Virus record (IMG/VR): IMGVR_UViG_3300045988_163275
Location: 43,752 to 107,751 of that record
DNA length: 64,000 bases
Source: a virus
Lineage: Duplodnaviria > Heunggongvirae > Uroviricota > Caudoviricetes
Reading direction: 5' to 3' (one strand)
Shown here: in pieces, positions 18,935 through 62,950 of the stretch
Position numbering within the stretch: the stretch's first letter is position 1
How the letters are laid out: each line of letters starts with the position of its first letter
Translations under genes and position numbers: made by a program
The notes under the pieces: model-generated
Seen by the model: only the letters and a program-made list of their open reading frames with translations
Databases searched by the model: none
What the model was told of the DNA's origin: nothing

Positions 18935-19490
18935 ACCACTGTAGAGAGTAAAAAGGCTCACTATCCACTGTAGTGAGCCTTTTTGTTTATCGGAAATGCA
19001 ATATCCACTGTAGTGAGTAAAAGAAACCGAAGAATAACCACTGTAGGCAGTGCGCACAAATCGCGAAGTAAATGTTAGTGGTTGCAAACATAGATAAAAC
19101 AAGGGCTGAGAGGTTAGCGGTCACTGGGTATCCATGTTAAGTCTACTCTCTACAGCGGTTATCGTCGCTCTCTTCATTGTTGACTATCCACTGTGAAGAG
19201 CAGAATTGGCTGACTTGACCTTTATCCACTGTAGTGAGTGGATATCTGTTTAAAACAGCGAAGATTTACTCTCCATAGTGGATATCCGCTGGAGGAGGCA
19301 TTCCATCACTCTCTATAGTGGTTGTTTGTAGTCAGTGAACGCCTGTTTACTCACTACAGTGGATAGTTGATATCGTGGCAGAGGGTTTGCTCACTACAGT
19401 GGTTGGGGTGCATACCTGAAGGGTGTTCTACTCGCTACAGTGGTTATGAGCCGGATTCACACACGGTGAGCTGGCTACTCACCGCAGTGG
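18935..19490. repeat. downstream iteron field (about 13 units, both orientations)
   Basis: CCACTGTAG(T/A)GAG-type units in direct orientation 18936-19058 and mostly inverted orientation 19148-19490. Confidence 0.7.
18954..18985 (+). terminator. hairpin plus T-run after repA (overlaps an iteron)
   Basis: AGGCTCACTA tccactg TAGTGAGCCT followed by TTTTTG, preceded by AAAAA. Confidence 0.45.
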
Positions 19491-48820: not shown

Positions 48821-49375
48821 TTAGTGGCGTTTATCTTCTTCCAGACGAGCCGTTTTTAATTGTTTATCGGTAAAGGTAAGCAACGTTACGCCCTCTTTTT
48901 CGTTCAAAAGGCCTGCACCGTTAATCACCATTACTAACCGATCCTTCCCTCGATAGACTTCATAATACTTGCCCGCACCACAGGTCTTTGTCTCAATACA
49001 GTCCATACCAGATATAGCTTCTTGGTCGAAAATTCTGTCTTTCGTTGCTACCGGTTTTCCGTACTCCTTTGTCAGCATTTCACCGATCTGCATGAACGTA
49101 TACTTGCCGACATTTGTCGTTAAAGACGATTCAACCTTTCCATCAATGAGATTGCCATACGTATGCGGTTCCTGCTCCTTCGGTGCATTTTTATCTTGAA
49201 GTGCGAAGGCTTCAATATTGGGTGTTTGCTCTTGGAACTGGGCTTTATAGTTCTGTGCAAGATCGCTTTTATCTCTACCTATTAAGGTGATTTTGTCGAT
49301 CTCCGACTCGTTACATCCCGTCAGAGCGAACGCGATCACCAGAGATGCGAGAATATTGAGGTTGCGCTTTTTCAT
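48821..49375 (-). CDS. lipoprotein
   Basis: Signal peptide with lipobox MKKRNLNILASLVIAFALTGC. Confidence 0.6.
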   Translation of the reverse strand: MKKRNLNILASLVIAFALTGCNESEIDKITLIGRDKSDLAQNYKAQFQEQTPNIEAFALQDKNAPKEQEPHTYGNLIDGKVESSLTTNVGKYTFMQIGEMLTKEYGKPVATKDRIFDQEAISGMDCIETKTCGAGKYYEVYRGKDRLVMVINGAGLLNEKEGVTLLTFTDKQLKTARLEEDKRH

Positions 49376-49502
49376 TGGCTTATCTCCATGTTTTACTGCC
49401 ACATCCTATCACCCACATGCAGGCAGTCTAATGCTGCCGTTGCTAAATGAAGGCCCAAAGGTGGTAAAACCATACGTGGAAATATTCTGGAGTCAACCCA
49501 GC

Positions 49503-49530
49503 AAAAAAGGGGCCGAAGCCCCTTTGATTT
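49503..49530 (-). terminator. rho-independent terminator downstream of tRNA
   Basis: GGGGC cgaa GCCCC hairpin with TTTTTT on minus strand. Confidence 0.6.
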
Positions 49531-49677
49531 TTGCGCTAAAAAGTGTTGGTACAATGCTAAGAAGCAATGGTTAAGAACGTCTGCCGTGTCTATCACAGCG
49601 CTGAACGGTCTGGCGACATTTGCGGAGTCTTTCCGTTCGGACGGTGGTGGCGAACTCCAAACCGTTCAGCGCTATGT

Positions 49678-49752
49678 TGGCGATGGTGGGTGGACTCGAA
49701 CCACCGACCAGTTGATTAACAGTCAACCGCTCTACCACTGAGCTACACCATC
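49678..49752 (-). tRNA. tRNA-Asn (anticodon GTT), CCA encoded
   Basis: Cloverleaf by hand: acceptor GATGGTG/CACCATC, D-stem GCTC/GAGC, anticodon stem GTTGA/TCAAC with loop CTGTTAA, T-arm GGTGG TTCGAGT CCACC, discriminator G then CCA. Confidence 0.85.
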
Positions 49753-50500
49753 ATTTTTCGCGGCGGTACTTGTTCATGGACAACCAGGCAACCAAGAACT
49801 TTCCCGCAACTTGCACTTTACGTTAGTGCCAGACGAGGCTTGTGGCTCGCTCACATAGAGCGAAGATCTGGAATCCTTCTCGGCTGTTGATGGCCGCCAG
49901 ACTCTTCGATCTTATTGGATGTATGGAATCATCCATGTTGTGAAACCAGGGGCTACATAGGCAACAATGATTTCACCAGAGGGTTAAAGAATCCTGCTTT
50001 CACAACGTTGAGGCCACTGAACCGATTTATGTTCGACCCAACATATTGATCAGTCACTACAGCTCTGTGGAATCACCTGTATGATTAAAAGAAAAACAGT
50101 GACCTCAACGTTGTGCGCTGGCTAACCAAGCCAGCCGGGTTACGTCGCCGCTTTTAACCCAAGATTAAACGACATAAGTAATGGAAATGACGTAACAGGA
50201 TGGACGGTCAGCTGGCTGAAACCGGGATGATGGAATGGAATGAGGAAACCAACCGCCCATCCTGTTACTTCATCGAATAGGGCATGGGTGGTGCAACATG
50301 CCCTATCCTGCGTTCTGCAATCACACTCGCTCAGTGTGTCCCATTTCGGTGACGAGGCTGGAAACTGACCTCGCTGGTGTTTGGCTTCTTAGGCTACTGC
50401 CAGGTATGCATCTTCGTTTGCAGTTATATTTAACGTTCAAACAGTCGCATCTCAACGAAAACAAAGTGATCTTATACATATTAGATAAGTAAGTAAATAC

Positions 50501-58994: not shown

Positions 58995-59659
58995 TATTCT
59001 TCCTCCAGACTCAAGATGTAATCTACAAACTCTTCGAACTCGGCTTCTGCCTTCTTATCGCGTTCAGCGCCAGTCATTTCAAAGATAGAACGACCTGCCT
59101 CTTCCGCATCGTCATAAACGTTACGGTTGTACAGGTTAACCGGCGCAGCCTCGATGCCGAAAGTTTCGACAATTTCCTTCGCGGCCAGAATACGTGATAC
59201 CTGGGAAGGCAATGACGGACACTGGTTTATTACCGCGCGGATCTTAACTTTCTCGTTCACATTGCGAACGTTGTCGATAATCGGGTCGATATCACGCAGA
59301 GATTTCAAATCACGACGTTTAGGGCGCAGCGGGATGATGATTACATCAGCCATAAGCATCGCCAGACGCTGAATTTCGGAGTCAAAGCCACCAGCATCTA
59401 CCACTACATAATCAGTTCGCCCCTGAAGCGATTTAAGATGTTTGACGATGTCGTCCTGCACATAAGCGAACGGGATCAGTTCAAGATCTTCGTTCTGGCG
59501 ACGGTCTTCACACCAGCTGGTCGTGGTGCGCTGGATATCGATATCGGTGACGTGAACCTTCTTTTTCTTTTTAACTTTGAGACATACCGCAATTTGCTGG
59601 GCAACGGTAGATTTGCCTGGGCCGCCTTTTGTGCCGCCAACCACAATGATCTTGGTCAT
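58994..59659 (-). CDS. parA: ParA/ParF-type partition ATPase
   Basis: Deviant Walker A GGTKGGPGKST, Walker B DYVVVDAGG. Confidence 0.8.
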   Translation of the reverse strand: MTKIIVVGGTKGGPGKSTVAQQIAVCLKVKKKKKVHVTDIDIQRTTTSWCEDRRQNEDLELIPFAYVQDDIVKHLKSLQGRTDYVVVDAGGFDSEIQRLAMLMADVIIIPLRPKRRDLKSLRDIDPIIDNVRNVNEKVKIRAVINQCPSLPSQVSRILAAKEIVETFGIEAAPVNLYNRNVYDDAEEAGRSIFEMTGAERDKKAEAEFEEFVDYILSLEEE

Positions 59660-59692
59660 TGGTGAGTTTCCTTTGCGTGAATTATTGTCGTA

Positions 59693-62362: not shown

Positions 62363-62950
62363 TTACTCTGCTGGTATTGTTGGCCAGTCAATATCCGGTG
62401 CCGTTGATGTGTCAATGCGGTTCAATAAAACTCTATACTTCTTCCATGCAGTCAGCAACGATGCTTCTTCCTCCGTTGCAATCTCCAAATCTACAGCATC
62501 CTGAAGTGGCGCAATGTGCTCGCTGGCTACCTGCATCAGACTTTTTTTTGTTTCTTCCGCTTCCCGTATCTGAAACAATTTTTCTGTTTCCTCATCCTTC
62601 TCCCAGGATGTGCCGTCCCACTTCTGATATTCCCCATCCGGTGATAACCAGGTGACATTTTCCGGTAATGGCCCAAGTTCAGAAATAAACAACGCGTCCC
62701 CTGATTCCACGTCATAGACCGTTTTACCCCTGTGGTCTTCAACGAGACTCCATGATTTATTTTCGCTATTGAATACGGCCACGAAGCCAGCAGGTACATC
62801 CGGTGGCGCTATATCCGTAGAATAAGCTGGCAGCCCTGTATGAGGTGGAATATATGCATCACCTTCACCAATAAATTCATTGGTTCCGGCCAACAGATTA
62901 TAAATTTTTATGGTCCGTGGTTGTTCACTCATTGTGAAGTCCATGTTCAC
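62363..62950 (-). CDS. tail fiber assembly protein (Tfa-like chaperone)
   Basis: N-terminal [28 protein letters not shown] and C-terminal WPTIP typical of Tfa proteins. Confidence 0.75.

What the first reader, a model, noticed from the sequence alone, without database searches (positions are those of the whole stretch)
49560..49677. Long nested hairpin immediately downstream of tRNA-Asn
A perfect 13-bp inverted repeat (AGCGCTGAACGGT at 49588-49600 and ACCGTTCAGCGCT at 49652-49664) encloses a 51-nt segment that itself contains smaller stems (GGAGT/ACTCC and CCGT/ACGG), between the tRNA 3' end and the terminator at 49503-49530. It could be a small RNA co-transcribed with the tRNA, a processing signal, or a tRNA remnant.
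Basis: seen in the sequence. Interest (0 to 1): 0.4.

Follow-up and report, generated by a model that had tools for sequence, protein, structure and literature searches.

The report
Conserved RNA hairpin ending phage-plasmid tRNA operon
The hairpin after the tRNA is real and is one of a family of conserved, unannotated 20-base-pair RNA stems that sit beside tRNA genes in SSU5-like and P1-like phage-plasmids of enterobacteria; they most likely act as RNA-processing elements, but their function is untested.

Summary
The 13-mers lie at 49597-49609 and 49661-49673. The tRNA-Asn (49678-49752) is on the minus strand.

On that strand the stem is 20 contiguous pairs, two of them G·U (these are A·C on the plus strand). 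It folds far better than shuffles (z -5.9). The window is an SSU5-like phage-plasmid.

The same hairpin follows the last tRNA of variable arrays in dozens of relatives. After it come a conserved tail and the same intrinsic terminator, giving a 175-nt trailer. Two stem positions show compensatory changes.

A covariance model then found two sister stems upstream of the tRNA on the same strand: U2 (about 49980-50116) and U1 (50180-50268). Each has four compensatory positions. Phage P1 carries related modules after its tRNA-Thr. Only five such hairpins exist in the 64 kb window, and three of them are here.

Rfam 15 has no match and no record annotates the element. It is not a tRNA remnant and not coding.

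Best reading, which is inferred: double-strand-specific (RNase III-type) processing stems in a tRNA/ncRNA transcript, with the last one releasing a terminator-ended tail RNA. The element is dispensable: SSU5 has lost half of it.

The parts
49678..49752 (-). tRNA-Asn (GTT) with encoded CCA. The element starts 1 nt after its 3' end.
   Evidence: ARAGORN; Rfam tRNA model, 76.2 bits
49657..49676 (-). 5' arm of the 20-bp stem of hairpin H (CAUAGCGCUGAACGGUUUGG)
   Evidence: pair table
49614..49656 (-). Interior of H (43 nt). It holds a type-specific small hairpin plus the conserved motif AAAGACUCCGC (49622-49632).
   Evidence: folds; alignments A1 and A2
49594..49613 (-). 3' arm of the 20-bp stem of H (CCAGACCGUUCAGCGCUGUG)
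49574..49591 (-). Small tail hairpin T1 (AGACACG-GCAGA-CGUUCU), nearly invariant among relatives. It leads into the conserved UUCUUAACCAU.
   Evidence: Part of the sample was selected with this motif, but copies found through the tRNA alone also have it.
49552..49569 (-). Small tail hairpin T2, variable in sequence
   Evidence: fold; alignment A1
49523..49551 (-). A/U-rich, predicted single-stranded linker (…ACACUUUUUAGCGCAAAAAUCAAA) ahead of the terminator
   Evidence: fold; conserved in A1
49503..49522 (-). Intrinsic terminator GGGGC-UUCG-GCCCC followed by U6. This is the end of the conserved unit; relatives diverge completely beyond it.
   Evidence: sequence; (the scan reports the same stem on the + strand)
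49980..50116 (-). Sister module U2. Its 19-bp stem (50097-50115 with 50001-50019) has one G·U pair. Its tail UGUGAAAGCAGGAUUCUUUAACC resembles H's tail.
   Evidence: covariance model R1: 35.3 bits, E 3e-5; fold z -3.86; 4 compensatory pairs among relatives
50180..50268 (-). Sister module U1. Its 22-bp stem (50247-50268 with 50192-50213) has four G·U pairs. The top of the stem, GCGGUUGG/CUGACCG, resembles that of H.
   Evidence: model R1: 20.5 bits; fold z -7.06; 4 compensatory pairs

Best explanation
The hairpin is the folded 5' part of a conserved 175-nt RNA trailer (window 49677 to 49503, minus strand). This trailer ends a tRNA/non-coding-RNA operon of an SSU5-like phage-plasmid. It is the last of at least three stems of about 20 bp (U1, U2, H) transcribed on the tRNA strand.

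Proposed mechanism. The stems are perfect helices of about two turns that begin 0-3 nt after a tRNA's CCA, so no single-stranded RNA is left there for RNase E. They would therefore serve as cutting sites for a double-strand-specific nuclease (host RNase III) that divides the long transcript into units. A cut in H would leave tRNA-Asn with a short 3' extension, which exonucleases can trim back to the encoded CCA. The cut would also release a tail RNA of about 95-105 nt. That tail has two small hairpins, an A/U-rich linker, and a terminator with a U-tract, which is the look of an Hfq-type small RNA.

Shown: the structure, its strand, its conservation and covariation, its fixed place before the terminator, and its family relations.

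Inferred: transcription as one unit, RNase III cleavage, and any activity of the tail RNA.
For: Structure and strand:
- H has 20 contiguous pairs. MFE is -42.5 kcal/mol, z -5.89; the whole trailer gives z -5.95.
- In H, U2 and U1 the non-Watson-Crick pairs are 7 G·U against 0 A·C in the tRNA sense.

Conservation:
- The same hairpin, tail and terminator follow the last tRNA in arrays of differing content (Asn; Asn-Thr-Ser; Asn-Ser; Asn-Tyr-Thr-Ser). It can also follow another module.
- 44 distinct full copies were found.
- 97.4% of stem cells are paired, against 24-47% when the partner column is slid. Two positions change on both sides, and the four one-sided changes in the stem (C-G to U-G, U·G to U-A, G-C to G-U) keep a standard pair in the tRNA sense.
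- Sister stems U2 and U1 each have 4 compensatory positions, with 98.4% and 96.9% of cells paired.
- Across 71 distinct long hairpins in array regions, most stems are 19-23 bp (overall 15-27).

Clustering and context:
- 3 of the 5 long hairpins in the 64 kb window lie within 680 nt of the tRNA.
- No promoter-like site lies inside or just upstream. The only one follows the terminator.
- The plus-strand ORF through the element (49567-49719) is not conserved: there are indels of 0, 3 or 4 nt, and Cyrano has a stop at codon 14.

Precedents:
- Papers on tRNA 3'-ETS-derived sponge RNAs and on an RNase III-processed sRNA were listed by the search, title and abstract only.
Against: - No expression or cleavage data exist for any copy.
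- The H family is closely related (effective sequence number 1.42), so its two covarying positions may reflect only one or two events. Several copies carry hybrid arms with a C·A mismatch.
- The element is dispensable. SSU5, a viable phage, lacks the 3' arm, the tail and the terminator. L117 and L075 are truncated as well.
- In P1, knock-down of trnT, plp and upl, which overlie related modules, scored non-essential.
- E. coli tRNA operons are normally matured without RNase III (my own knowledge).
- The tail shows no significant complementarity to any translation start in the window.
- G·T wobble is also tolerated in single-stranded DNA hairpins, so the strand test does not strictly exclude a DNA-level fold.
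Confidence: 0.42

Rival explanations
1. Each long-stem module (H, U1, U2 and the X modules of relatives) is an autonomous stable non-coding RNA. The conserved stem would be a protein-binding scaffold and the variable interior would give specificity. Possible roles are a decoy or adaptor for a host or phage RNA-binding protein or nuclease, in the manner of Y RNAs, or of T4 RNAC/RNAD, whose role is unknown.
For: - Stems are conserved while interiors vary strongly, apart from a short motif (AAGACUCCGC in H).
- Some modules in relatives contain a canonical T-arm or end in a hairpin followed by CCACCA, which mimics a tRNA.
- One module class gives recurrent sub-threshold matches to the prophage sRNA STnc100 (36-38 bits against a gathering score of 47).
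- The modules sit with tRNAs, which in phages often counter tRNA-targeting defences (my own knowledge).
Against: - H has no match to YrlA, Y RNA or any other Rfam family.
- No Ro/Rsr-like or other RNA-binding protein was recognised among the neighbours.
- H has no tRNA-like arm.
- This reading does not exclude processing: such RNAs would still have to be cut out of the transcript.
Confidence: 0.25
2. The whole 175-nt trailer is a single small RNA derived from a 3' external transcribed spacer. It would be released from the tRNA by RNase E or exonucleases, without RNase III. H would be a protective 5' stem. The RNA would act through Hfq as a base-pairing regulator or as a sponge for host sRNAs, like 3'ETS-leuZ of E. 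coli.
For: - It lies between the last tRNA and the intrinsic terminator.
- It has a conserved segment that is largely single-stranded in the predicted fold (UUCUUAACCAU), an A/U-rich linker, and a terminator with 4-7 U.
- Papers on sponge RNAs derived from tRNA 3'-ETS regions were listed by the search, title and abstract only.
Against: - No single-stranded RNA lies between the CCA and the stem where RNase E could cut (sequence).
- The in-window target search was not significant: the best duplex, -29.1 kcal/mol, was matched by 2 of 25 shuffles and is interrupted.
- Host targets could not be searched.
- Some relatives keep H but have a different tail (L075, L091, L096, L119).
Confidence: 0.18
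3. The inverted repeats act at the DNA level. They would be recombination hot spots or cassette boundaries (cruciforms or single-strand hairpins) that shuffle tRNA genes and mark the edge of a variable region.
For: - Array content differs greatly among relatives.
- Homology breakpoints cluster in or next to the element: SSU5 at window 49635, L117 before the 3' arm, L075 right after the stem, L091/L096/L119 in the tail. All relatives diverge right after the terminator.
- A survey reports transposon insertions 'near tRNA loci' in SSU5-like elements.
- Some copies have hybrid arms.
Against: - Breakpoints fall at different positions, not at one crossover point.
- There are no extrahelical bases and no attC-type core sites at the base of H (sequence).
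- All mismatches are wobble pairs on the transcribed strand.
- Compensatory substitutions keep the pairing while the primary sequence changes.
- Scattered breakpoints are what homologous recombination between conserved segments would give.
Confidence: 0.08
4. It is a decayed tRNA gene or a chance palindrome with no function.
For: - It sits where relatives carry further tRNAs (Thr, Ser, Tyr).
- In this sequence type the interior begins GGAGUUCG, which resembles half of a T-arm.
- The element is dispensable in SSU5.
Against: - No tRNA-model match even at E up to 10.
- In relatives that have the extra tRNAs, the hairpin is still present after them, so it is not their remnant.
- It folds far better than shuffles and is conserved with covariation.
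- The GGAGUUCG segment is absent from the other sequence types.
Confidence: 0.03

Closest known systems
Phage T4 stable RNAs RNAC and RNAD ('species 1' and 'species 2')
   Same: They are small structured RNAs transcribed from a phage tRNA region, without an assigned function (PMC3014915; PMC9697503). From memory, not checked here: they lie at the end of the tRNA cluster, are co-transcribed with the tRNAs, and T4 species 1 RNA is cleaved by RNase III.
   Different: No sequence or structural homology was tested. The T4 RNAs are discrete, abundant species known from gels, whereas no transcript has been observed for this element. T4 is strictly lytic, while this element lives in phage-plasmids.
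tRNA 3' external-transcribed-spacer RNAs such as 3'ETS-leuZ of E. coli
   Same: Same position, between the last tRNA of an operon and its intrinsic terminator. Both would be a by-product of tRNA maturation that may act in trans (papers on such sponge RNAs listed, title and abstract only).
   Different: From my own knowledge, 3'ETS-leuZ is short, is released by RNase E, and has no 20-bp stem. Here the trailer is 175 nt and starts with a long helix directly after the CCA. Its Hfq binding and targets are unknown.
RNase III processing stems (rRNA operon stems, T7 early-transcript sites, the dicF precursor)
   Same: An uninterrupted helix of about 20 bp (two turns) placed between functional RNAs of a polycistronic transcript. 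This length is the minimal RNase III substrate (my own knowledge).
   Different: Cleavage has not been shown. Classical T7 sites have an internal loop and are cut once. The interiors here are 24-82 nt and partly conserved, which a simple spacer would not need.
STnc100 (RF02076) / PasD prophage sRNAs
   Same: They are carried by enterobacterial phages and are frequent close to other prophage sRNA genes in prophages and phages (10.64898/2026.05.13.724894). A module after tRNA-Ser in relatives matches model positions 31-147 at 36-38 bits. The match includes the closing stem UGGUGAAU…CACCA.
   Different: H and its tail do not match STnc100 at any threshold tried. A sequence profile of H finds no such modules. 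The relationship, if any, is at the level of a superfamily of modules.
Bacterial Y RNAs (YrlA, RF02553)
   Same: A long stem formed by distant segments encloses a variable or tRNA-like domain, and they are found in some phages (my own knowledge).
   Different: No YrlA match to H. The only weak hit in relatives overlaps a real tRNA. No rsr gene was seen among the neighbours scanned.

Membership tests
tRNA / tRNA remnant (RF00005) | Cloverleaf recognisable by ARAGORN or the Rfam tRNA covariance model | tested here: not met
   Only tRNA-Asn at 49678-49752 is found. Nothing is found over 49503-49677, even at E up to 10.
tRNA 3'-ETS-derived small RNA | Lies between the last tRNA of an operon and its intrinsic terminator, on the same strand | tested here: met
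   tRNA 3' end at 49678, element 49677-49523, terminator 49522-49503, all on the minus strand. The order is the same in relatives.
tRNA 3'-ETS-derived small RNA | Accumulates as a discrete RNA, binds Hfq, and pairs with sRNAs or mRNAs | not testable with these tools
   No expression data. The in-window target scan was not significant.
RNase III processing site | Uninterrupted double-stranded RNA of about 20 bp or more on the transcribed strand | tested here: met
   H has 20 contiguous pairs, U2 19 and U1 22. The pairing is maintained in relatives.
RNase III processing site | Staggered cleavage in vivo or in vitro that depends on rnc | not testable with these tools
   Needs end-mapping in wild-type and rnc hosts, or an in-vitro cleavage assay.
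STnc100 / PasD sRNA family (RF02076) | Score at or above the Rfam gathering threshold (47 bits) | tested here: not met
   No hit in the window at E up to 0.1, or in 49000-50300 at E up to 10. Other modules in relatives reach only 27.5-38.4 bits.
Y RNA / YrlA (RF02553) | Match to the model, a tRNA-like domain, and a neighbouring rsr gene | tested here: not met
   No match. Recognised neighbours are a DNA ligase, a PhoH-like protein and a glutaredoxin; the rest have no Pfam match.
Self-cleaving ribozymes placed after tRNAs (HDV-like 'theta', hammerhead, twister and others) | Match to the corresponding Rfam models | tested here: not met
   No ribozyme family appears at E up to 10 over the element.
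Integron attC-like single-strand recombination site | RYYYAAC/GTTRRRY core sites at the stem base, extrahelical bases, a fixed crossover point, and an integrase | tested here: not met
   The base of H is CAUAGC/GCUGUG, with no unpaired bases. Natural breakpoints fall at different positions. Integrase presence was not examined.
Protein-coding gene (plus-strand ORF 49567-49719, 50 aa) | Reading frame conserved among relatives | tested here: not met
   Indels of 0, 3 or 4 nt in the tail, and a stop at codon 14 in Cyrano-type copies.
T4 RNAC / RNAD | Sequence or structural homology to the T4 RNAs | not tested
   No T4 sequence was compared. The resemblance is in genomic setting only.

The most novel reading that the evidence does not exclude
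The long-stem modules (H, U1 and U2 here; X1-X3 in relatives and in P1) could be a previously unrecognised class of phage-plasmid non-coding RNAs that work together with the phage tRNAs. They might be decoys or adaptors that neutralise host nucleases aimed at tRNAs or structured RNA. Alternatively they might be a modular scaffold that displays variable interior loops as regulatory seeds. This would explain why stems are conserved while interiors diversify, and why array content is reshuffled between elements.
Probability: 0.15. Interest if true: 0.8.

Novelty: new member of a known kind. Interest (0 to 1): 0.5.

Why it matters
SSU5-like and P1-like phage-plasmids are common in clinical Enterobacteriaceae. 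This element alone is on plasmids of 245 of 5,426 complete E. coli genomes. Their tRNA regions are annotated only as tRNAs plus hypothetical ORFs.

This work shows that the 'empty' DNA around the tRNAs holds a family of conserved structured RNAs. That corrects the annotation; P1's predicted lipoprotein gene plp, for example, lies antisense over two such modules. It also defines candidates for new phage sRNAs or processing signals. And it offers a tractable E. coli and P1 system for a question open since T4's RNAC and RNAD were found: what do the stable RNAs embedded in phage tRNA clusters do? If the stems are RNase III sites, they would also be an unusual route to tRNA 3'-end maturation in enterobacteria.

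Tried and rejected
1. Rfam 15 over the element (E up to 10) and over the whole window (E up to 0.1): only the tRNA, plus an unrelated IS009 RNA. An STnc130 hit at E 9.3 is chance.
2. tRNA remnant: rejected.
3. Plus-strand ORF, and a plus-strand promoter (TGGTACAAT read by eye): the ORF frame is not conserved. The promoter-like sequence is absent in other types and was not found by the scan.
4. Sequence-profile search (nhmmer) linking H to other spacer modules: nothing beyond truncated copies and the hairpin's own reverse strand. My by-eye impression of paralogy with X2 and X3 is therefore supported only by the covariance model's weak hits of 15-35 bits.
5. Targets of the conserved tail and of the interior motif among 168 translation starts in the window: not significant. 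An earlier attempt timed out. Host targets could not be searched.
6. Species-representative genomes searched with a pattern made only of the two arms: 6 hits, of which 2 are real (Buttiauxella, Kluyvera), both of the window's type. No new diversity was gained.
7. Y-RNA idea: no support.
8. Literature on phage-plasmid or pHCM2 transcriptomes: nothing about this region.
9. attC-like recombination site: features not met.
10. The terminator scan reported the stem only on the plus strand, because its stem extension absorbed the U-tract. Read directly, the terminator works on the minus strand.

Full report
**1. The observation.** They lie at 49597-49609 and 49661-49673, nine bases higher than reported. 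ARAGORN places tRNA-Asn(GTT) at 49678-49752 on the minus strand, with an encoded CCA. The hairpin is therefore downstream of the tRNA only in minus-strand terms, and it starts one nucleotide after the CCA.

On that strand the stem extends to 20 contiguous pairs (49657-49676 with 49594-49613), including two G·U pairs that would be A·C mismatches on the plus strand. As RNA, the minus strand folds at -42.5 kcal/mol. Its z-score is -5.89 and none of 200 dinucleotide shuffles does as well; the plus strand gives z -3.34. On the minus strand it reads GGGGC-UUCG-GCCCC followed by six U, from 49522 to 49503. A window-wide enumeration finds only five hairpins of this class (stem of at least 16 pairs, loop 20-130 nt), against a mean of 0.4 in shuffles. 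Only its coordinates and strand description needed correcting.

**2. What the window is.** The 521 bases around the element match plasmids of Enterobacter, Salmonella and E. coli at 96.5-99.4% over essentially their full length, and part of Salmonella phage SSU5 at 99%. The window is an SSU5-like phage-plasmid. Recognised neighbours on the same strand are an ATP-dependent DNA ligase, a PhoH-like ATPase and a glutaredoxin. Just after the terminator lies an ORF whose N-terminus reads like a lipoprotein signal peptide, preceded by its own promoter-like site.

**3. The element in relatives.** In phages Cyrano, vB_KpnS_p4727 and CMS-2020a the tRNA array is longer: Asn-Thr-Ser, Asn-(spacer)-Ser and Asn-Tyr-Thr-(spacer)-Ser. 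In each, the same hairpin follows the last tRNA. After it come a conserved tail (UGUGAUAGACA…ACGGCAGACGUUCUUAACCAU…) and the same terminator.

I made two scans of viral contigs. The first was seeded on the tail. The second was seeded only on the 3' end of the tRNA-Asn, so it is unbiased with respect to the element. Together they gave 44 distinct full-length copies among 79. The element can follow tRNA-Asn, tRNA-Ser, another hairpin module or a terminator-like stem. Whenever the tail is intact, the terminator comes next. Beyond the terminator the relatives share nothing. In complete E. coli genomes the element occurs on plasmids only: 246 places in 245 of 5,426 genomes, never on a chromosome and never annotated. 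Among species-representative genomes, the only real copies are in Buttiauxella and Kluyvera.

**4. Is the structure selected?** In an alignment of 21 distinct copies, 97.4% of the cells of the proposed pairs form standard pairs. The figure is 24-47% when the 3' partner is slid by one to three columns. Two stem positions change on both sides (U-A to C-G, and G-C to A-U), and the four one-sided changes in the stem (C-G to U-G, U·G to U-A, G-C to G-U) all keep a standard pair in the tRNA sense.

The family is closely related, with an effective sequence number of 1.42, so these may represent only one or two events. Four copies carry hybrid arms with a C·A mismatch. The interior is hypervariable in length and sequence apart from the motif AAAGACUCCGC (49622-49632). 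Most types contain some small hairpin there, but with unrelated sequences.

**5. It is one of a family.** A covariance model of the hairpin plus the first tail hairpin (R1) finds two further full-length matches on the same strand, in the non-coding stretch upstream of the tRNA.
- **U2 (49980-50116):** 35.3 bits, E about 3e-5 in a 466-kb search. Its stem is 19 bp with one G·U. Its tail, UGUGAAAGCAGGAUUCUUUAACC, parallels H's tail.
- **U1 (50180-50268):** 20.5 bits. Its stem is 22 bp with four G·U. The top of the stem, GCGGUUGG/CUGACCG, parallels that of H.

Both fold well beyond shuffles, with z -3.86 and -7.06. Both are conserved in relatives and show clearer covariation than H. Each has four positions that change on both sides, with 98.4% and 96.9% of cells paired. 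Taken together, the three stems in the window have 7 G·U and 0 A·C pairs in the tRNA sense. Three of the five long hairpins in the window lie within 680 nt of the tRNA.

In relatives with larger arrays, the long inter-tRNA spacers (147-621 nt in the loci examined) are filled with modules of the same design. A stem starts 0-3 nt after a CCA, the interior is 24-82 nt, and a UGUG(A/G)UGAA-type tail follows. Some have a canonical T-arm inside, or end in a hairpin followed by CCACCA. Across 71 distinct hairpins, most stems are 19-23 bp long. Phage P1 carries two such modules directly after its tRNA-Thr, on the tRNA strand, beneath and antisense to the predicted gene plp. One module class gives recurrent sub-threshold matches to the prophage sRNA STnc100, at 36-38 bits against a gathering score of 47. 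STnc100 and PasD are prophage-encoded sRNAs. A pure sequence profile of H does not detect the other modules. Their kinship with H therefore rests on the shared design and on weak covariance-model scores.

**6. What it is not.**
- Not a tRNA remnant. There is no tRNA-model match, and the hairpin coexists with the extra tRNAs in relatives.
- Not any Rfam 15 family, including ribozymes, Y RNA and STnc100.
- Not coding. The 50-aa plus-strand ORF is broken by indels and by a stop codon in other types.
- Not an independent transcription unit as far as a σ70 scan can tell.
- Not an attC-like site. It has no core sites and no extrahelical bases, and natural breakpoints are scattered.

**7. How it probably works.** The points below are shown:
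- a strand-specific, conserved RNA helix of about two turns begins immediately after the CCA of the last tRNA;
- a conserved tail follows, predicted to form two small hairpins and an A/U-rich single-stranded linker;
- an intrinsic terminator follows the tail;
- sister helices lie upstream in the same orientation.

The rest is inferred. All of this would be one transcript. The helices leave no single-stranded RNA next to the tRNA for RNase E, so a double-strand-specific nuclease, namely host RNase III, would cut them. That would free the tRNA's 3' side for exonucleolytic trimming and release a terminator-ended tail RNA of about 100 nt with the look of an Hfq-type sRNA. I give this about 0.4.

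The main rivals are:
- the modules are autonomous protein-binding or decoy RNAs (0.25);
- the whole trailer is a 3'-ETS-type Hfq sRNA or sponge made without RNase III (0.18);
- the repeats act at the DNA level in recombination (0.08). Breakpoints do cluster here, and the G·T wobble argument does not strictly exclude single-stranded DNA folding.

The first three readings are not mutually exclusive.

Whatever the function, it is accessory. SSU5 has lost the 3' arm, the tail and the terminator. Other natural copies are truncated or carry a different tail. P1's trnT, plp and upl scored non-essential for plaque formation. A search for targets of the tail among translation starts in the window was not significant.

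**8. Comparison with known systems, and novelty.** The closest analogues are four.
- **T4's RNAC and RNAD:** small RNAs transcribed from its tRNA region whose roles remain unknown. From my own memory only, they lie at the end of the cluster and 'species 1' RNA is cut by RNase III.
- **tRNA 3'-ETS-derived sRNAs.**
- **Classical RNase III processing stems.**
- **The STnc100/PasD prophage sRNAs.**

The element meets the positional definition of a 3'-ETS RNA and the structural requirement of an RNase III substrate. It fails membership of every sequence-defined family tested. I rate it a new member of a known kind: an undescribed, conserved structured-RNA family in phage tRNA operons. Interest is moderate (0.5). 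The structure and its family are solid and unannotated in widespread clinical phage-plasmids and in P1, but the function is inferred and the element is dispensable.

Noticed in passing
window 62403-62601 (-): A full-length, high-scoring match to the Rfam family IS009 (RF02111): 191 bits against a gathering score of 117. [quoted passage not shown]
   Followed up: no
window 59591-59671 (+): A second tRNA gene, tRNA-Lys (TTT), lies on the opposite strand about 10 kb from tRNA-Asn. No long-stem modules were detected next to it.
   Followed up: partly
window 19185-19365: The only other long hairpins in the window are two overlapping inverted repeats built from TATCCACTGT(A/G)… units, with stems of 20 and 22 bp. 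They look like iterons or operators, possibly a replication or partition site.
   Followed up: no
L070 (phage P1, NC_005856) locus 1072-1423, i.e. record about 69502-69853: Two long-stem modules (X1, which has a T-arm inside, and X2) lie immediately after P1 tRNA-Thr on the tRNA strand. They sit underneath and antisense to the predicted CDS plp ('putative lipoprotein'), so that ORF call may be spurious.
   Followed up: partly
L102 and L111, just after tRNA-Asn: A tRNA-Thr-like gene appears to carry an insertion of about 60 nt in the anticodon region (GCCGGTTTAGCTCAGTGGGAGAGCACGAGAGCC…GGTCAGCGGTTCGAATCCGTTAACCGGCACCA). ARAGORN does not call it. It could be an intron or a disrupted tRNA.
   Followed up: no
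L074 4285-4405, L077 5180-5291, L078 6647-6767: The module downstream of tRNA-Ser in larger arrays matches STnc100 (RF02076) at 36-38 bits, below the gathering score of 47. This suggests that tRNA arrays of phage-plasmids carry distant relatives of the STnc100/PasD prophage sRNAs.
   Followed up: partly
window 49900-49985 (-): The tail of U2 contains CUCUGGUGAAAUC, which resembles the 5' end of DicF (as I recall it) and the UGGUGAAU of STnc100. P1 has a 'dicF-like region' annotated at the equivalent place upstream of its tRNA-Asn. No Rfam DicF match was found here.
   Followed up: partly
window 49469-49496 (-): A promoter-like site (TTGACT, 16-nt spacer, TATGGT) lies directly after the terminator, in front of the ORF with a lipoprotein-like signal peptide (ATG at 49375). 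This marks the start of the region that varies among relatives.
   Followed up: no
L071, L074, L077, L078, upstream of tRNA-Asn: Weak matches (22.8-25.2 bits, E 0.24-0.86) to the permuted tmRNA model recur at the same relative position in four loci. They are probably chance or tRNA-like fragments.
   Followed up: no
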